64,000 bases of DNA from Flavobacteriaceae bacterium. Its GTDB lineage: Bacteria > Bacteroidota > Bacteroidia > Flavobacteriales > Flavobacteriaceae. The stretch spans positions 43,906 to 107,905 of the forward strand of contig PALG01000017.1 of NCBI GenBank assembly GCA_002707025.1, written 5' to 3'. Below the pieces are notes generated by a model, which made no database searches, was not told the DNA's origin, and worked only from the letters and a program-made list of their open reading frames with translations. Both the position numbers and the translations under genes were made by a program. Below, one piece after another: positions 46,287 to 51,465 of the stretch (positions within the stretch are counted from its first letter, which is position 1; the number at the start of each line of letters is the position of its first letter).

Positions 46287-46307
46287 AAGCCTTCCTTAAA
46301 ATTGGCG

Positions 46308-46315
46308 CAAAGTTA
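46308..46315 (-). promoter_or_regulatory. -7 box TAACTTTG for the MMPL gene
   Basis: The plus strand reads CAAAGTTA, 22 nt upstream of the TTG start. Confidence 0.5.
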
Positions 46316-46396
46316 GTAAATTACCTAGGATAGGAACGATAAGATTAGATTATAATTTTAGGGAGACGATAAAAAACACAGGGTAAATAAGCATAA

Positions 46397-49024
46397 TTAA
46401 AAACTAAAATTAGCATTTAAGAGAAGGTAACCTTGTAAGATTTTTGTGATACTTTGATTAATAATACTTTGTTGCGTATTGTTTTCTACCAAATTATTGT
46501 TGTTTAGATTTAATATGTTAAATCCTTTTATACCATATTCCCAATTTGAAGATTCTTTTTTGTAAAAAATGGAAGGATTTAAGTAAAAAATATTGGAATT
46601 TATATTTTCTGTTTCAAATATTGAATATTTAGATTCTACATTCCAGATAATATTTTTTGAAATAATCCCGTCCAAATTAAGATAAGGCTGCCTTTGTGTT
46701 AATCTTGATTTTAAAGTATTAAAATTAAATGTTGAATAGGTATACCTATGTCCTAGAGAAATATGTATTGGGGAATTTTTAAAATTTGAACTAACTTCAG
46801 AAAAACCACCTATTGTATTTTTTTTAAATTCAAAAGGGTTGTTGTCTTCAAAATATTGGTTTTTTACGAAATCTATATTAATGCTATTAGTAAAAGTAAG
46901 AGGTAATGATTTGAAACGTTTTTCGAAAAAAAATAGATTTGAAAAAAAATCATTATCATTAATTAATTGGTATTGTGTAACTGTTACATTGGGAGAGTTA
47001 AATATATTATTACCTATATCTTTCCGTCTTTTTCTAAATGTAGAATTAAATACAAATGAAAAATTTGTACTTTTTATGATGTGATGTTGATAATTAATTT
47101 GATGAGATGGAAATATGTTATCGAAATTTAAATTATTGTTTACACTTAAATTTCTATAATTTCTAACTACTGGATTTATTATTAAATTATAAATAGTATT
47201 CGTTTCATTATCATAGCTATAACTTAAAATGCCATAGTTGTTTTCGCTAATTTTTAATTTTAAAGAAGTGTTAATGTCAAAAAATAATAATTCACTTCCT
47301 ACATTATTAAAATTTTGTAAATTAAAATTATAACCCAAGCCTACACTATATTTAATATTAGGATTTAAATTAAAACTTATTGTAGAGCTAACTCTTGATT
47401 GATAGGAACTTAGTGTTAAATTATTATTTTGAAATAAATTATTTATTGTTTCTATTTTGCTATGGTTGTAACTTAAATTAACTGAATTTGATAAATAAAA
47501 ATTAGAAAACTCTTTGTCATATTTTATGTTTAAACCTGCTCTTTTATTGTTGTTTTTAACCTCTTGATTAATTATTGAACTAACAGTGTTTAATATTGGT
47601 CTATTTGCATCAATTAATAAATTTTCATTATTATTAATTAAATTGAAGTAGCTTTCTAGATTTAAAAGAGCATTTTTGTTTTTCTTAGTAAAAGTTAATT
47701 TAGTTTTAGTAATAAAATTTTCTGGAATAATATTTTGATTTATAATAGTAGTGTCTACGGCTTGATTAGTAATGAAATTTTTATTTCTAGAATGGTCAAA
47801 ATTAAAATGCTGCTCTAGTTTAAAAATAGAGTTTTCTCCATTTTTATAAACTCCTTTTAGTTGTCCTAACACAAACCAATTTTCTTCATTAAAAATATTT
47901 TCTTCAATAAAGCTAAAATTATTGTTACTAGCACTTAGAGTTTGTAAATTTTGTTTGATTCTGTTTTGTGAGGTATTGTTTAATATTGTGTAAAAATCGA
48001 ATTTGGTCTTGTTATTTAGTTTGTACACAGAACTTAATGTAGCAAAATTAGTAAGTCTAGTTTTTGCACGATCTTTTGATGTTAAAAAACTAGGGGCATC
48101 ACTATTATCAATAAATTTTACGGTATTAGTAGTGTTTTCGCCTATTGGGTTATTATTTGTTAATTCATTATAATCTTGTAAAGTAATGGGCACATTACCC
48201 GTATTATTAAAATTTGAGATTAGGGATGATTTTATTTGTTTGCTGAAATTAAATATTTTGGGTTTGAATTCATACTTATTTACAATCCCTACACCAGCAT
48301 CTAGATTTCCTGTAAACCTGTTTTTGAAACTCTCATTTACTAAAATATTTAAGGCAGTTAATCCAGTTTTGTCATTTAAGCCAATATATTCAAAGTCTTT
48401 ATAGTTTTTAATAACTTCAATATTTCCTGCCATTTCAGCCGGTAAGTTGTCTGTAGCTAATTGATGTTGGTTTTTATAAAGATTCTCACCATCTACCAAT
48501 AATTTATCTATTTGCTTACCTTGAAAGGTTATTTTACCATTTTCATTAATACCTATATCAGGTAAGCTTAGTAAAACATCCTTTAAATTTCTTTCGGTAC
48601 CATTTATAAACTTTTCGGTTTTGTAAACTGTAGTATCACCTTTTTTTATAATTTTTGCTTCAGCTTTTACGATAACCTCTTTAAGTTCATTTATGTCATT
48701 GGTAATTGTAATTTTTCCAAAGTGATAATCTTTTTGGTCTATCTTAAATTCTTGAATGTAGCTTTTATAACCTAAATGAGTAATTTTAATTTTATAAACC
48801 CCTTTATTTGCGTTTAAAATAAAAAATCCTTCATTGTTACTTAGAGTATAATTTTTTGTAGCATTATTTTTTAATAAGATAATATTTGCACCTTGAATAG
48901 GTTGGCCTATTTCGTTAAAAACGTTCCCAGTAATCTCTATTTGTGCATTAATACAATTAAATTGTAATATAAGCAGTACTATAAAAAGTAATTTAAAATT
49001 ATAAATATTATTTTCCTTTTCCAT
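46397..49024 (-). CDS. Asn-rich outer-membrane beta-barrel protein with CarboxypepD_reg-like N-terminus (TonB-dependent-receptor-like)
   Basis: 875 aa. Signal peptide ...QFNCINAQ, CarboxypepD_reg-like ITGNVFNEIGQPIQGANIILLKNN...GVYKIKITHLGY, a plug-like segment and C-terminal ...NANFSF. The DNA is very AT-rich. Its start overlaps the GLPGLI gene by 17 nt. Confidence 0.8.
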   Translation of the reverse strand: MEKENNIYNFKLLFIVLLILQFNCINAQIEITGNVFNEIGQPIQGANIILLKNNATKNYTLSNNEGFFILNANKGVYKIKITHLGYKSYIQEFKIDQKDYHFGKITITNDINELKEVIVKAEAKIIKKGDTTVYKTEKFINGTERNLKDVLLSLPDIGINENGKITFQGKQIDKLLVDGENLYKNQHQLATDNLPAEMAGNIEVIKNYKDFEYIGLNDKTGLTALNILVNESFKNRFTGNLDAGVGIVNKYEFKPKIFNFSKQIKSSLISNFNNTGNVPITLQDYNELTNNNPIGENTTNTVKFIDNSDAPSFLTSKDRAKTRLTNFATLSSVYKLNNKTKFDFYTILNNTSQNRIKQNLQTLSASNNNFSFIEENIFNEENWFVLGQLKGVYKNGENSIFKLEQHFNFDHSRNKNFITNQAVDTTIINQNIIPENFITKTKLTFTKKNKNALLNLESYFNLINNNENLLIDANRPILNTVSSIINQEVKNNNKRAGLNIKYDKEFSNFYLSNSVNLSYNHSKIETINNLFQNNNLTLSSYQSRVSSTISFNLNPNIKYSVGLGYNFNLQNFNNVGSELLFFDINTSLKLKISENNYGILSYSYDNETNTIYNLIINPVVRNYRNLSVNNNLNFDNIFPSHQINYQHHIIKSTNFSFVFNSTFRKRRKDIGNNIFNSPNVTVTQYQLINDNDFFSNLFFFEKRFKSLPLTFTNSINIDFVKNQYFEDNNPFEFKKNTIGGFSEVSSNFKNSPIHISLGHRYTYSTFNFNTLKSRLTQRQPYLNLDGIISKNIIWNVESKYSIFETENINSNIFYLNPSIFYKKESSNWEYGIKGFNILNLNNNNLVENNTQQSIINQSITKILQGYLLLNANFSF

Positions 49025-49697
49025 AAATTACTTGATACTGAGAAAAAGTAAGAGGAGCAATGGAAGGTTCTGGTTCTACAATAGATGTATTTTTTTCTGG
49101 GAAAAAGTTTAGTTTTTCAAAACGTATAGTACTAAGGTTACCAATATTAACTTCCAAAATTAAGCCTGGTAGCCCTGTGTATGCATGAGGTCCATTATTT
49201 ATTGGAATATCCTCTGTGTACCACACAGTAATTTTTCCTTTGAATCCAAAACTAGGATTTTCTGTAGTTGCTTTTTTGCATTGATAGCCAGCTATTTCTT
49301 TTACTTCTTCATTTATCAAAGTCCATTTTAAAATTGGGATAGAGTCTTTTATGGCAATAGTTTTATTATTTACAGTTTGCTCTATTCTTACTTTTTTAGA
49401 AGTGAAATTTAGAAAATAAAAAGAATTAGAAGGCATGTAGGTTTTGGCATTTACATCATGAACCTTCCCAAATTCATCTACAATTAGGGTGTCTTTAGCC
49501 GTTACCCCTCCACCCATAATTTGGCGTTGTAAAGAAAGATTATTACTATAAATGTATGAATAAGTAATAGGATTTAATGCTTCTTTCTCTAAAGTTCGGC
49601 CTTGAGTAGTTTTTTTAAAATAAATGTTATAAATACCTGTTAAGGTTTGCCCATAACAGGTATTTATAGTTAACAATAAAAGAATTATATACTTCAT
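49008..49697 (-). CDS. GLPGLI-family protein (Porph_ging-type), unknown function
   Basis: Start chosen at MKYIILLLLTINTCYGQ (signal peptide). Family signature YTGLPGLILEV. Confidence 0.8.
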   Translation of the reverse strand: MKYIILLLLTINTCYGQTLTGIYNIYFKKTTQGRTLEKEALNPITYSYIYSNNLSLQRQIMGGGVTAKDTLIVDEFGKVHDVNAKTYMPSNSFYFLNFTSKKVRIEQTVNNKTIAIKDSIPILKWTLINEEVKEIAGYQCKKATTENPSFGFKGKITVWYTEDIPINNGPHAYTGLPGLILEVNIGNLSTIRFEKLNFFPEKNTSIVEPEPSIAPLTFSQYQVIYGKGK

Positions 49698-49699
49698 TA

Positions 49700-49906
49700 T
49701 TATAAACAGTATTGAGAACAAACTACATCATATACTTCTACACATTGTATTTGCCCCATTATCTCACTACATTCTGTATGAGAATACACTCTAACACAAT
49801 TCCAAAAACAATCTTCATTTAAGGGTTGAAGGTTAGTTTTTTCAGAAGGTATTGTAAATGAAAAACTTAAAAGTGCAATAACTTATAGTGCAATGTATTT
49901 CTTCAT
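49700..49906 (-). pseudogene. unannotated 68-codon ORF for a Cys-rich secreted peptide, interrupted by an in-frame TAA at codon 8
   Basis: Hand translation gives MKKYIAL*VIALLSFSFTIPSEKTNLQPLNEDCFWNCVRVYSHTECSEIMGQIQCVEVYDVVCSQYCL**. The stop (49883..49885) splits a signal peptide. The terminal TAATAATG overlaps the GLPGLI start. Confidence 0.5.
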
Positions 49907-49925
49907 AATTTTTAAGGTTTGCGCC

Positions 49926-49934
49926 CAAAAAATA
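49926..49934 (-). promoter_or_regulatory. near-consensus -7 box (TATTTTTTG, one extra spacer nt) for the island operon
   Basis: The plus strand reads CAAAAAATA, 20 nt upstream of the ATG at 49906. Confidence 0.35.
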
Positions 49935-49954
49935 CATTCGGGCAGGTTAGTAAA

Positions 49955-50019
49955 AATTACAAGACTTAAAAACTACAAGGTGGCAACAAGGCAATTACAA
50001 GGCTACAAGAAATTACAAG
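49955..50019. repeat. array of six (A/C)ACAAG / TACAAG direct repeats
   Basis: AATTACAAG at 49955, 49993 and 50011. CTACAAG at 49973 and 50003. CAACAAG at 49984. One inverted copy CCTTGTAA lies at 50079..50086. Confidence 0.8.
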
Positions 50020-50163
50020 TTTAAAAAAAACCAACGTTGGCTAGGATATCCAGTTTGCCAAAGAACAGCTCACAATTGCCTTGTAAATCAATTGCTTTTG
50101 TGTTTTTGACTTATGAAAGATAAAAAAAAAAAAAGGATACGAAGCAAGTTTTAAATGTTAAAC

Positions 50164-50198
50164 AGGAAAAACCCTGTCATTTAAAAAGGGTTTTTCCT
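50164..50198 (-). terminator. intrinsic terminator after the 50197..51465 gene
   Basis: AGGAAAAACCCT-(11 nt)-AGGGTTTTTCCT, a 12-bp perfect stem overlapping the stop codon. Confidence 0.75.
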
Positions 50199-51465
50199 AT
50201 AATTTTAAATTGAAAGTAAACTTCACCGAGACATTATCTTCAAATTTATCCAAGTTGTAGAAGCCGTAACGATAGGCGAAGCTTAAACCGAAACCAAAGA
50301 GGAGCTTGTTGATTTCAAAACCCGATTCAGAATAGATATTTTCCAGGGTATTGAAAGGCAGTCCTAAGTGTTTTTCCCGTTGTTCCATGGCTCCCAAGGC
50401 ATGACGGGTAATCAAGACCAATTCGGGCTGAAATTTTTCTGAAAAATTAAATCTTCTTAAAGTGTGTTTGGCTCTGAAGGTAAGTAGTTTGCTTGAGAAA
50501 AATTCCCCGAAATACATGGTTTCAAAACTTTGTGTTCCGGCTACCGAAAAGCGTTGCAGGATTTCATCTTTGGTAGGGTTGTTAGGATAAGCATGGTACA
50601 AGTGGGTTAAGGGAACGTCCCCAAAAGCCATCGCTCCTTCCAGGACCAGATGGGAAGACGATAAATCGGTTCGCTTTACAAAATAATCCAACTTTAGTCC
50701 GGCTTTTGTGTAGTTAAAGTCACTGCCTGCAATATCTTTAAAGCCTTGATTAATTTGTGCGCTAATCTTCGGAAAGCCATCGTAGAACTCCTCAATGCCT
50801 TCTTCCGTGGTTAATGATAATGTTTTTGGAGAGTATCGAACTGCTAGGGCAACTTCGGCTAATTTGTAGTTTTCATAAGTAATTCCGTTGTCCAAGTACT
50901 GATAGTTTTCAATCTGTTCAATTCTGCTATGGGACAAACGTATTTCAGAAACTACTTTTTTATGAGGCTCCAGTTGTAAAGCACTTTTCCAGGTGCGATA
51001 GCTATAAAACTGGGTAATGTTGAGCAGTCGTGGTTCAAAAATGGAGTAGGTTCTGTTTTTGGTTAAATATTCGAAACTTCCCATTTCTCGGATATCTTTG
51101 GTGTAGTACAGATTGATCCAAGCATTGTTTTTTTTGTTCAAACGGTAATTTCCCCCGAGACTATATTTAAAGGCATCATCCTTAAAACCATAGGCCGTGT
51201 AGCCTCCAATTTTAAAATTTTCAAAAAGCCGTTCGTTGGTAATCCCTCCAAATCCTAAACGAAAAGATTCATAGTTGTTGTATTTAATAAAATAGCGAAG
51301 ATCAACATCAAAAAACCAGATAGGGTAATATCCGGTTACAAAAGGGCTTAATTTTTTATAGGCTTTTTTGTTTTCTACGGTATCCTTGGAAATTTCCGGC
51401 AATTGAGCAGTGACAGCCAACCCTTGAAAAAGCAGGATAATAAGCGCTATTTTTTTGATTGGCAT
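50197..51465 (-). CDS. outer-membrane beta-barrel protein, unknown function
   Basis: 422 aa with signal peptide ...GLAVTAQ and an alternating beta-strand pattern rich in Tyr/Gly/Phe. It lies downstream of frr. Confidence 0.65.
   Translation of the reverse strand: MPIKKIALIILLFQGLAVTAQLPEISKDTVENKKAYKKLSPFVTGYYPIWFFDVDLRYFIKYNNYESFRLGFGGITNERLFENFKIGGYTAYGFKDDAFKYSLGGNYRLNKKNNAWINLYYTKDIREMGSFEYLTKNRTYSIFEPRLLNITQFYSYRTWKSALQLEPHKKVVSEIRLSHSRIEQIENYQYLDNGITYENYKLAEVALAVRYSPKTLSLTTEEGIEEFYDGFPKISAQINQGFKDIAGSDFNYTKAGLKLDYFVKRTDLSSSHLVLEGAMAFGDVPLTHLYHAYPNNPTKDEILQRFSVAGTQSFETMYFGEFFSSKLLTFRAKHTLRRFNFSEKFQPELVLITRHALGAMEQREKHLGLPFNTLENIYSESGFEINKLLFGFGLSFAYRYGFYNLDKFEDNVSVKFTFNLKL

What the first reader, a model, noticed from the sequence alone, without database searches (positions are those of the whole stretch)
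49700..49906. Unannotated Cys-rich secreted-peptide ORF with a single in-frame TAA inside its signal peptide
The ORF track misses this ORF. On the minus strand, ATG at 49906 through TAA TAA at 49702..49697 reads MKKYIAL*VIALLSFSFTIPSEKTNLQPLNEDCFWNCVRVYSHTECSEIMGQIQCVEVYDVVCSQYCL. The TAA at 49883..49885 separates the MKK n-region from the hydrophobic h-region of an otherwise canonical signal peptide. The predicted mature part carries six Cys in a symmetric C-x3-C-x8-C-x8-C-x7-C-x3-C pattern, with twin CX3C ends as in disulfide-stapled helical hairpins. After the TAA, 60 sense codons stay open in DNA of roughly 25% G+C. Assuming A=T=0.375, stops should occur about once per 11 codons, so a 60-codon open run has a chance of roughly 0.4% per frame. 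The ORF is also start/stop-coupled to the GLPGLI gene. It could be a freshly inactivated gene, a sequencing or assembly error in an intact gene, or a recoding or variation site.
Basis: seen in the sequence. Interest (0 to 1): 0.65.

Follow-up and report, generated by a model that had tools for sequence, protein, structure and literature searches.

The report
Naturally knocked-out small secreted hairpin-peptide gene
The interrupted reading frame is a real small gene for an exported, disulfide-stapled beta-hairpin peptide that heads a conserved but unstudied three-gene outer-membrane cassette in marine flavobacteria, and in this strain lineage one genuine base change (TTA to TAA) has switched it off.

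Summary
On the minus strand, ATG 49906 to TAA 49702 reads MKKYIAL*VIALL…SQYCL, with TAA at 49885-49883. Its length alone proves nothing, because shuffled island DNA gives about 3 open runs of this size.

Comparison settles it:
- **Real mutation.** The same TAA occurs in two independent metagenome assemblies. Five other contigs of a sister haplotype carry TTA (Leu) and an intact 68-aa gene. This is a real lineage-wide nonsense mutation, not an assembly error. Recoding is unlikely, since TAA is the main stop codon here.
- **Gene family.** The peptide belongs to an unnamed family with no Pfam or NCBIfam match. Members have a Sec signal, a polar linker and a 35-40-aa hairpin.
- **Fold.** AlphaFold2 predicts a beta-hairpin (pLDDT about 90), not a helical one. 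Cysteines are gained and lost in pairs (C1/C6, C3/C4; C2/C5 invariant), implying a nested disulfide ladder.
- **Cassette.** The gene always sits just upstream of a GLPGLI gene and an 855-888-aa outer-membrane protein. That protein models as a TonB-dependent transporter.
- **Repeated loss.** Five of about 19 such cassettes have a broken peptide gene, always upstream of the hairpin. GLPGLI is intact in all five and the transporter in four.

Function is inferred only: a peptide partner or ligand of the GLPGLI-transporter pair.

The parts
49700..49906 (-). Interrupted 68-codon small gene (MKKYIAL*VIALLSFSFTIPSEKTNLQPLNEDCFWNCVRVYSHTECSEIMGQIQCVEVYDVVCSQYCL, plus its stop)
   Evidence: Read directly. 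An intact 68-aa allele, P0001, occurs in L001 and L051-L054. A 45%-identical homologue, P0003, also sits next to a GLPGLI gene.
49883..49885 (-). Premature TAA (codon 8). The sister haplotype has TTA (Leu), so the change is a single T-to-A substitution.
   Evidence: Alignment. The same TAA is in L049 and L050. TTA is in five haplotype-B contigs.
49850..49906 (-). Signal-peptide coding part (about codons 1-19): MKK n-region, hydrophobic YIAL(L)VIALLSFSF, and a likely cleavage after SFS or SFT
   Evidence: Inferred from the sequence and from family members with clear AxA sites such as AVA|NN. SignalP was not available.
49703..49810 (-). Hairpin domain (codons 33-68) with six Cys. Predicted as a two-stranded beta-hairpin with three nested disulfides.
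   Evidence: AF2 on P0001 gives strands 33-49 and 52-67 with pLDDT about 90. Cys gain and loss is pairwise.
49008..49697 (-). GLPGLI family gene (229 aa, Sec signal, intact). Its ATG overlaps the peptide gene's second TAA.
   Evidence: TIGR01200 3e-32; PF09697 and PF22252.
46397..49024 (-). 875-aa outer-membrane protein: N-terminal CarboxypepD_reg domain, a weak Plug match, a large beta-barrel and a C-terminal Phe. TonB-dependent-transporter-like and intact. The candidate TonB box ELKEVIVKA (about residues 113-121) was noted by eye only.
   Evidence: Pfam. AF2 pLDDT 88. Foldseek top hits are OprC, Cir, PhuR, FhuE and HasR, with probability 1.0 and E about 1e-15. Distant relatives carry PF14905. 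N-terminal sequence.
49957..50019 (-). Five direct CTTGTAR repeats (plus one CTTGTTG) 50-115 nt upstream of the peptide ATG. Possibly a promoter or operator array.
   Evidence: Five of the window's 23 matches fall within 63 bp. Conserved in haplotype B but absent upstream of homologues elsewhere.
46300..50150 (.). Low-GC island (20-31% G+C in a 38.7% genome) that holds exactly the three-gene cassette
   Evidence: Composition profiles.

Best explanation
Shown:
- The ORF is a natural null allele of a real gene.
- The ancestral gene encodes a 68-aa precursor with a Sec signal peptide, a short acidic linker and a 36-residue C-terminal domain.
- One T-to-A change turned Leu-8 (TTA) into TAA in the hydrophobic core of the signal peptide. 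This allele is present throughout one marine strain lineage (haplotype A).
- A sister lineage (haplotype B) keeps the gene intact.
- The gene is the first of a conserved, co-oriented cassette: peptide, then GLPGLI (1-3 copies), then an 855-888-aa TonB-dependent-transporter-like outer-membrane protein. The cassette occurs across Flavobacteriales.

Inferred from modelling and covariation:
- The C-terminal domain folds as a long amphipathic beta-hairpin.
- The hairpin is stapled by nested disulfides C33-C67, C37-C63 and C46-C55.

Inferred, about 35% confidence:
- The exported hairpin is the dedicated partner of the GLPGLI-transporter pair, either as a ligand that is bound and taken up or as a small modulatory subunit.
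- The TAA allele is then a 'non-producer that keeps the receptor'. Ribosomes stop at codon 8. No in-frame ATG, GTG or TTG follows until 29 codons before the end. No exported peptide can therefore be made, and any translational coupling into GLPGLI through the TAATAATG overlap is lost.
For: Real mutation:
- The 210-nt stretch, TAA included, is identical in L049 and L050 (ERZ17093976, ERZ17082316). L050 differs from the window at 65 positions in 8.6 kb.
- TTA with an intact ORF is in L001 and L051-L054.

Coding constraint:
- Haplotype A versus B shows about 5 synonymous and 4 non-synonymous changes, dN/dS 0.18. My hand binomial estimate is p about 0.02.
- All six Cys are kept.

Family:
- An exhaustive search of 1.84 billion proteins found P0003 (70 aa, 45% identity), also directly upstream of a GLPGLI gene.
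- A profile search found 30 small proteins with the same architecture.
- A profile built without the close relatives still ranks this ORF first of 1316 six-frame segments, E = 0.013.

Synteny:
- A small signal-peptide ORF with bracketing Cys lies immediately upstream of GLPGLI in L002-L008, L011, L013, L036, L044-L046, L048, L055 and L058-L062. Where the contig extends far enough, the large outer-membrane gene usually follows (not in L011).

Fold and disulfides:
- AF2 gives strands 33-49 and 52-67 with pLDDT about 90.
- C1 and C6 are present together (window, haplotype B, L055). C3 and C4 are present together (window, haplotype B, P0003). C2 and C5 are invariant.

Partner proteins:
- GLPGLI.
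- TonB-dependent-transporter fold.

Preferential loss:
- The peptide gene is disrupted in 5 of about 19 distinct cassettes: the window, L008, L058, L062 and L002. GLPGLI is intact in all five and the 11-fold longer transporter gene in four.

Relaxed constraint in the TAA lineage:
- N36 and R39 are derived, where haplotype B and P0003 both have Ser.
Against: - No expression, protein or interaction data exist for any family member.
- Co-folding with GLPGLI or the transporter could not be run.
- A Sec signal delivers the peptide only to the periplasm. How it would reach the cell surface to act as a transporter ligand is unexplained.
- dN/dS and the polarised changes rest on single-digit counts.
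- The link to the 2-Cys majority of the family is weak by sequence alone (E = 0.013). It depends on intermediates and on synteny.
- The TAA was verified in only three assemblies, although haplotype-A proteins occur on dozens of contigs.
- Downstream re-initiation at a non-canonical codon (ATT at 49879-49877) cannot be excluded.
Confidence: 0.85

Rival explanations
1. Sequencing or assembly error: the real genome has TTA and the gene is intact.
For: It is a single-base difference from an intact allele.
Against: The same TAA, and 210/210 identical bases, are found in two independent assemblies from other samples. One has clearly different flanking sequence. The site is not a homopolymer.
Confidence: 0.02
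2. Recoding or read-through: TAA is decoded as a sense codon, or bypassed, so the full precursor is still made.
For: The 60 codons after the stop are still open. The TAA allele appears to be the commoner haplotype. The island carrying it is nearly identical across diverged backgrounds.
Against: TAA terminates 25 of 37 long ORFs in the window, including this gene, GLPGLI, the transporter gene and frr. No suppressor tRNA is present in the window. The homologous codon is ordinary TTA in the sister haplotype. Other lineages carry unrelated lesions (-1, +1, ATG to ATA, TAG), which no single recoding mechanism explains.
Confidence: 0.03
3. Chance open frame: not a gene at all.
For: Open runs of at least 60 codons arise about 3 times by chance in this island. 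There is no Pfam, NCBIfam, PADLOC or Rfam match.
Against: Homologues at 45% identity and a 30-member profile family exist, all with a signal peptide and a conserved Cys pair, and all directly upstream of GLPGLI genes in many genera. The hairpin is confidently predicted. Synonymous changes exceed expectation between haplotypes.
Confidence: 0.01
4. The peptide is a Sec-dependent bacteriocin-like toxin. GLPGLI acts as immunity and the outer-membrane protein as exporter. The TAA allele is a 'toxin lost, immunity kept' state.
For: The peptide diverges fast. GLPGLI occurs in tandem arrays (3 copies in L007, 2 in L045). The peptide gene is repeatedly lost while its neighbours are kept. The cassette sits in a low-GC island, which suggests horizontal transfer.
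Against: The mature peptides are acidic (net -3 to -8), unlike the cationic membrane-active hairpin peptides I recall. There is no double-glycine leader, C39 peptidase or ABC exporter nearby. The large protein has an importer (TonB-dependent) fold with an N-terminal SusC-type domain. There is no defence-system match.
Confidence: 0.12
5. The peptide is a periplasmic negative regulator (inhibitory plug or adaptor) of the GLPGLI-transporter pair. Its repeated loss is then adaptive de-repression.
For: A Sec signal alone targets the periplasm. The peptide gene is lost far more often per nucleotide than the transporter gene. The TAA-bearing island is almost identical across diverged strains, which fits a recent sweep.
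Against: There is no direct evidence. It is indistinguishable from the ligand model with present data.
Confidence: 0.15

Closest known systems
Small secreted carrier proteins encoded next to their TonB-dependent receptor (HasA-HasR in Serratia; HmuY-HmuR in Porphyromonas gingivalis)
   Same: A small exported protein gene is co-oriented with the gene for a TonB-dependent outer-membrane transporter. HasR is among the structural matches of the 875-aa protein. 'Producer lost, receptor kept' is a pattern I recall for such public-good systems.
   Different: There is no sequence or fold similarity to HasA or HmuY. The peptide is only about 36-50 residues when mature and has no obvious haem or metal ligands. 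A third partner (GLPGLI) is always present. No dedicated route across the outer membrane is evident. The comparison rests on gene order plus my own knowledge, not on a test.
Disulfide-stapled beta-hairpin peptides (tachyplesin, protegrin, arenicin, thanatin)
   Same: A two-stranded antiparallel hairpin held by cross-strand disulfides.
   Different: Those peptides are 17-25 residues, strongly cationic and eukaryotic host-defence molecules (my own knowledge). This one is bacterial, Sec-exported, about 36 residues in the hairpin, acidic, and carries one to three nested disulfides.
   Same: Symmetric CX3C motifs at both ends, with a nested disulfide topology.
   Different: The predicted secondary structure is all beta with high confidence. 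The outer CX3C pair is dispensable: P0003 and most family members lack it. Those families are eukaryotic mitochondrial proteins.
Bacteroidetocins and class II bacteriocins
   Same: Small ribosomal peptides of Bacteroidota with a disulfide.
   Different: As I recall, those use a double-glycine leader with a peptidase-ABC exporter and are cationic. Here there is a Sec signal, an acidic peptide, no such exporter, and a constant GLPGLI plus transporter context.
GLPGLI family (TIGR01200 / PF09697) and the N-terminal domain of PNGase F-II (PF22252; PDB 4R4X, 7ZGN)
   Same: The neighbouring gene is a clear member.
   Different: No function is known for this domain. Only four papers in the library mention GLPGLI, and the one I opened only lists such proteins in a PhoP regulon table.

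Membership tests
Unnamed family of small secreted hairpin proteins encoded upstream of GLPGLI genes (P0001, P0003, P0005-P0032) | N-terminal Sec-type signal peptide (MKK, then a hydrophobic core) | tested here: met
   MKKYIAL(L)VIALLSFSF aligns with the family's signal peptides. In this allele it is cut by the TAA. SignalP was not run.
Unnamed family of small secreted hairpin proteins encoded upstream of GLPGLI genes (P0001, P0003, P0005-P0032) | C-terminal domain of about 35-40 aa with an invariant Cys pair next to aromatic residues (W-x-C ... Y-x(0-2)-C) | tested here: met
   C37 and C63 are invariant in every alignment, and W35 and Y59 are nearly invariant. A profile built without the close relatives gives E = 0.013 and the top rank.
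Unnamed family of small secreted hairpin proteins encoded upstream of GLPGLI genes (P0001, P0003, P0005-P0032) | Position immediately upstream of, and co-oriented with, a GLPGLI gene, followed by a CarboxypepD_reg outer-membrane barrel gene | tested here: met
   Window. Relatives.
Twin CX3C / CHCH helical hairpin | Two antiparallel alpha-helices, each carrying one CX3C (or CX9C) motif | tested here: not met
   AF2 predicts strands 33-49 and 52-67 and no helix, with pLDDT about 90.
Programmed stop-codon recoding or reassignment | The in-frame stop is conserved among homologues, or the codon is used as sense across the genome | tested here: not met
   The sister haplotype and the intact homologues have a sense codon here. 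TAA is the main terminator of long ORFs.
Class II bacteriocin / bacteroidetocin | Double-glycine leader with a C39-peptidase ABC exporter nearby; cationic mature peptide | tested here: not met
   There is a Sec-type leader, a net charge of -5 and no ABC or C39 gene in the cassette.
GLPGLI family (neighbouring gene) | Score above the TIGR01200 cut-off, with the GLPGLI motif | tested here: met
   112.3 bits against a cut-off of 50. The motif TGLPGLILEV is present.
TonB-dependent transporter (875-aa neighbour) | N-terminal plug inside a 22-stranded barrel | tested here: inconclusive
   The fold matches many solved TonB-dependent transporters (probability 1.0, E about 1e-15), but TM-scores are only 0.3-0.5. 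The Pfam Plug match is below threshold (E = 0.01). Strands were not counted.
TonB-dependent transporter (875-aa neighbour) | Functional TonB box and energy dependence | not testable with these tools
   The candidate ELKEVIVKA lies in a low-confidence linker. This rests on resemblance only.
Hemophore-type carrier plus receptor systems | The secreted protein binds a nutrient and docks on its transporter | not testable with these tools
   Only gene adjacency is shown. No co-folding or binding data are available.

The most novel reading that the evidence does not exclude
The peptide-GLPGLI-transporter cassette may be an undescribed peptide-based uptake or signalling system of Flavobacteriales. In this reading a self-made, disulfide-laddered hairpin is recognised by its own TonB-dependent transporter. 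Wild populations would then be polymorphic for producers and for receptor-only 'non-producers'. The TAA allele would be such a non-producer, one that recently spread with its island across diverged strains. Lesions fall only upstream of the hairpin in five independent lineages. That could further mean the hairpin-coding part stays under selection even when export is abolished.
Probability: 0.25. Interest if true: 0.7.

Novelty: new variant of a known kind. Interest (0 to 1): 0.45.

Why it matters
- **The stop codon itself is ordinary.** It is a point nonsense mutation and does not call for a new genetic mechanism.
- **It exposes an overlooked gene family.** Gene callers often miss these small genes. 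Intact copies went uncalled in L051-L054.
- **It gives GLPGLI proteins a fixed context.** This large Bacteroidota family has no known function. Here it sits between a tiny exported hairpin peptide and a TonB-dependent-type transporter.
- **It offers natural experiments.** Intact and null alleles occur in closely related uncultured marine populations, and cultured Formosa and Flavobacterium carry intact cassettes. That provides natural knock-outs and tractable hosts for asking what GLPGLI proteins and these transporters do.
- **The disulfides are directly testable.** The pairwise gain and loss of cysteines predicts the disulfide map.

Tried and rejected
- **JGI metagenome scans.** A scan with the close-relative alignment and one with a degenerate DNA pattern for HTECSEIMGQIQC both found nothing.
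- **First word-indexed protein search.** It found only one hit. The exhaustive search added one true relative (P0003) and two low-complexity false leads, P0002 and P0004.
- **Foldseek of the peptide model against PDB.** No hit was better than E about 1. The long hairpins of pore-forming toxins appear, but only as generic geometry.
- **PDB sequence searches.** GLPGLI gave only weak hits to PNGase F-II and 7ZGN. The 875-aa protein gave only a SusC N-terminal domain at E = 0.056.
- **Family libraries.** The peptide has no Pfam or NCBIfam match. PADLOC has no match for the peptide or its two neighbours. Rfam has nothing significant for the locus.
- **Promoter and terminator scan.** The sigma-70 scan was no better than shuffles and does not apply to Bacteroidota.
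- **Literature.** GLPGLI appears in 4 papers, none of which appears to address its function. PF09697 and TIGR01200 return none. PF14905 returns one unrelated paper. A search for the PNGase F-II 'bowl' domain was uninformative.
- **Phase variation.** Rejected. There is no repeat at the TAA, and the L008 lesion is loss of a single, non-repeated G.
- **Mutational hot spot in the signal peptide.** The script crashed after 5 of 9 genes. In those five, one-step nonsense targets split about 50:50 between the upstream part and the hairpin. Mutational bias therefore does not explain why all lesions lie upstream.
- **CTTGTAR repeats as a family-wide operator.** Rejected. They are absent upstream of homologues in other genera.

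Full report

Yes. On the minus strand, ATG 49906-49904 opens MKKYIAL. Codon 8 is TAA (49885-49883). Sixty sense codons follow (VIALLSFSFTIPSEKTNLQPLNEDCFWNCVRVYSHTECSEIMGQIQCVEVYDVVCSQYCL). The frame then ends in TAA TAA (49702-49697), and the last A of the second TAA starts the next gene's ATG. That next gene is a clear GLPGLI family member (TIGR01200, 112 bits against a cut-off of 50; PF09697 and PF22252).

Two details need correcting:
- The genome is 38.7% G+C. Only a 3.9-kb island (about 46300-50150, 20-31% G+C) is AT-rich. It holds exactly three co-oriented genes: the small ORF, GLPGLI, and an 875-aa outer-membrane protein.
- The open frame is not significant on its length. Shuffled island sequence yields 3.05 +/- 1.6 stop-free runs of at least 60 codons, and the island has five such runs outside its genes.

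**2. Is the TAA an error, a recoding site or a mutation?**

The 875-aa protein's exact sequence is on many public contigs. Two independent metagenome assemblies, L049 and L050, carry the small ORF with 210 of 210 identical bases, TAA included. L050 differs from the window at 65 positions in 8.6 kb, so it is a different strain.

A second haplotype (L001, L051-L054; five contigs from different samples) has TTA (Leu) at that codon and an uninterrupted 68-aa gene, P0001.

TAA ends 25 of 37 long ORFs in the window, including this gene, GLPGLI, the 875-aa gene and frr. No suppressor tRNA lies in the window.

The TAA is therefore a genuine single-base nonsense mutation carried by a whole lineage. It is not an assembly artefact, and recoding is unlikely. 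It is also not a hypervariable site. There is no repeat at the position, and the SNP is one of ten differences that separate the two haplotypes over 207 nt.

**3. Is it a gene?**

Three lines of evidence say yes.

*Constraint between haplotypes.* The ORF shows about 5 synonymous and 4 non-synonymous changes (dN/dS 0.18), against 0.15 for GLPGLI and 0.40 for the large protein. Synonymous sites are only about 19% of sites. By my hand calculation, five or more synonymous changes out of nine has a binomial probability of about 0.02. All six Cys are kept.

*Homologues.* An exhaustive HMMER search of 1.84 billion representative proteins found P0003. It is 70 aa and 45% identical, with the sequence …EEFWSCVSVWLRTECDFQGINCYDVYQVVCSNYQL. 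It also lies directly upstream of a GLPGLI gene.

*A wider family.* I looked upstream of the closest GLPGLI orthologues in Bizionia, Formosa, Flavobacterium and a Flavobacteriaceae MAG. Each has a small ORF with a signal peptide, a polar linker and a C-terminal W-x-C…(about 25 aa)…C-T-W-Y domain.
- A profile of these plus the window peptide recovered 30 such proteins. All are 'hypothetical' or unnamed and none has a Pfam domain.
- A profile built without the two close relatives still ranks the window ORF first of 1316 six-frame segments (E = 0.013).

**4. The cassette**

The same order recurs wherever the contig is long enough. A small signal-peptide ORF comes first, then GLPGLI in one to three copies, then an 855-888-aa protein with an N-terminal CarboxypepD_reg domain.

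It is seen in these loci:
- L003-L008
- L013
- L036 (Cruoricaptor)
- L044-L046 (Chryseobacterium and a MAG)
- L055
- L058-L062

In the more distant loci the peptides are no longer clearly alignable. They keep the architecture: a signal, a linker and a Cys-bracketed strand-turn-strand domain. Bacteroidales GLPGLI loci (Prevotella, Segatella) showed no such ORF.

The 875-aa protein has these features:
- Its far relatives carry PF14905 or are named TonB-dependent receptors.
- It models with pLDDT 88.
- Its best structural matches are all TonB-dependent transporters: OprC, Cir, PhuR, FhuE, FoxA and HasR, with probability 1.0 and E about 1e-15.
- A stretch ELKEVIVKA lies in the flexible linker after the N-terminal domain. 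By eye it resembles the TonB box of SusC-type proteins.

**5. The peptide's structure**

AlphaFold2 was run on the intact allele with the family alignment. It predicts a single long beta-hairpin, with strands 33-49 and 52-67 and pLDDT about 90. The signal and linker are disordered.

Cysteines come and go in pairs across the family:

| Member | C1 | C2 | C3 | C4 | C5 | C6 |
|---|---|---|---|---|---|---|
| Window and haplotype B | yes | yes | yes | yes | yes | yes |
| P0003 | no | yes | yes | yes | yes | no |
| L055 peptide | yes | yes | no | no | yes | yes |
| Most other members | no | yes | no | no | yes | no |

This is what a nested ladder predicts: C1-C6, C2-C5 and C3-C4, numbered C33-C67, C37-C63 and C46-C55.

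One face of the hairpin is Val-rich, and the other carries the disulfides and charged residues. Mature peptides are acidic, with net charge -3 to -8. Foldseek finds no specific structural relative.

**6. Consequence of the TAA**

These points follow from the sequence. Termination at codon 8 removes the hydrophobic core of the signal peptide. The next in-frame ATG, GTG or TTG is a GTG only 29 codons from the end, so no exported hairpin can be made. The stop/start overlap with GLPGLI (TAATAATG) can no longer couple translation.

That overlap is specific to this species. Other loci have 30-100 nt spacers.

In the TAA lineage, two residues of the otherwise conserved FWSCVSV motif have changed (N36, R39). 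Haplotype B and P0003 agree on Ser at both. This is a weak sign of relaxed constraint.

**7. A pattern beyond this window**

Of about 19 distinct cassettes examined, five have a disrupted peptide gene:

| Locus | Lesion |
|---|---|
| Window lineage | TAA at codon 8 |
| L008 | loss of one G in the signal peptide |
| L058 | an extra T in a T-run in the signal peptide |
| L062 | ATG to ATA, plus an in-frame TAG in the signal peptide |
| L002 | no start codon and two stops in the linker; its transporter gene is also broken |

GLPGLI is intact in all five. The 11-fold longer transporter gene is intact in four. Per nucleotide, the peptide gene is therefore lost far more readily than its partners. 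It follows that the partners remain useful without a self-made peptide.

All eight lesions lie upstream of the hairpin domain, and the hairpin ORF is intact in every cassette. The script for this check crashed after five of nine genes. In those five, the upstream part holds about 56% of codons and about 50% of one-step nonsense targets. The bias is therefore suggestive, with roughly 0.55^5 to 0.55^8 expected by chance. The numbers are small.

**8. What it most likely does**

*Shown:*
- a real small gene;
- a real null allele;
- a conserved three-gene cassette.

*Predicted by modelling and covariation:*
- an exported, disulfide-laddered beta-hairpin;
- an importer-type fold for the large partner.

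*Inferred:* the hairpin works with GLPGLI and the transporter.

I favour a dedicated ligand or small partner of the transporter pair, at about 35%. The gene order parallels carrier-plus-receptor operons such as HasA-HasR and HmuY-HmuR. 'Producer lost, receptor kept' is typical of shared secreted goods.

The main gap in this model is the export route. A Sec signal reaches only the periplasm, and no route across the outer membrane is evident.

Two other readings remain open:
- **Periplasmic negative regulator (about 15%).** Its loss would be adaptive de-repression.
- **Bacteriocin with immunity (about 12%).** The acidic charge, the Sec leader, the absence of an exporter and the importer fold all count against this.

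**9. Comparison with what is known**

The peptide has no match in Pfam or NCBIfam, and PADLOC and Rfam show nothing for the cassette. The literature library mentions GLPGLI in only four papers. The one I opened only lists such proteins in a PhoP regulon table, and none appears to address function.

The stop codon is an ordinary pseudogenising mutation. What is new is the gene family and its fixed place in a peptide-GLPGLI-transporter cassette.

**10. Verdict**

- Observation: confirmed.
'Freshly inactivated gene' is right. Assembly error and a hypervariable site are rejected, and recoding is unlikely. The helical-hairpin analogy and the chance estimate are wrong.
- Interest: moderate (0.45). 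The lesion is mundane, but it flags an undescribed, testable envelope module with natural knock-outs.

Noticed in passing
window 46313-50337 (compare L050): Between the window and strain L050, a tract of about 4.0 kb covering the low-GC cassette has a single mismatch. The immediate flanks carry 20 mismatches in 1.7 kb and at least 39 in the roughly 2.9 kb on the other side. The cassette, TAA allele included, seems to have spread recently across diverged backgrounds by recombination or a gene-specific sweep.
   Followed up: partly
window 49957-50019 (minus strand): Five CTTGTAR direct repeats plus a CTTGTTG variant lie within 63 bp, 50-115 nt upstream of the peptide ATG. The whole 64-kb window has only 23 matches. 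The repeats are conserved in haplotype B but absent upstream of homologous genes in other genera. They may be an operator or promoter array.
   Followed up: partly
L008 5740-5760; L058 2000-2040; L062 515-545; L002 5700-5830: The peptide gene is independently disrupted in four other lineages by a frameshift, a lost start codon or in-frame stops. Every lesion lies upstream of the hairpin-coding part, which stays open in every cassette seen.
   Followed up: partly
window 50197-51465 (minus strand); L002-L008 and L059: A DUF5686-type outer-membrane protein gene lies next to the cassette here (422 aa, directly upstream). In Bizionia, Formosa and Flavobacterium it is about 830 aa, one gene away and on the opposite strand, with the cassette between pdhB and etfB. 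The recurrent neighbourhood is of unknown meaning.
   Followed up: no
window 50122-50134 (minus strand): A run of 13 T lies in the intergenic region upstream of the peptide gene. It is one base shorter in haplotype B (columns 67-79). This could be a length-variable tract or an assembly uncertainty.
   Followed up: no
window 50165-50197 (minus strand): An 11-bp inverted repeat, GGAAAAACCCT…AGGGTTTTTCC, lies right after the DUF5686 gene stop. It looks like that gene's terminator, so the peptide gene probably has its own promoter. The simple terminator scan did not list it.
   Followed up: no
window 49008-49697 (protein cluster): A near-identical GLPGLI protein (P0046, on 59 contigs) is deposited as 'MAG: hypothetical protein [Alteromonas sp.]'. 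The locus content (GLPGLI, SusC-type N-terminal domain, DUF5686) is typical of Bacteroidota, so that MAG bin is probably mislabelled or contaminated.
   Followed up: no
L051-L054 (haplotype B), about 2744-2998: The intact 68-aa gene was not called by the gene finders on four of five haplotype-B contigs. Small genes of this family are systematically under-annotated.
   Followed up: no
L007 4844-10097; L045 5566-9674: GLPGLI genes occur as tandem arrays inside the cassette: three copies in Formosa sp. L2A11, with the peptide gene between the first and second, and two in Chryseobacterium piscicola.
   Followed up: no
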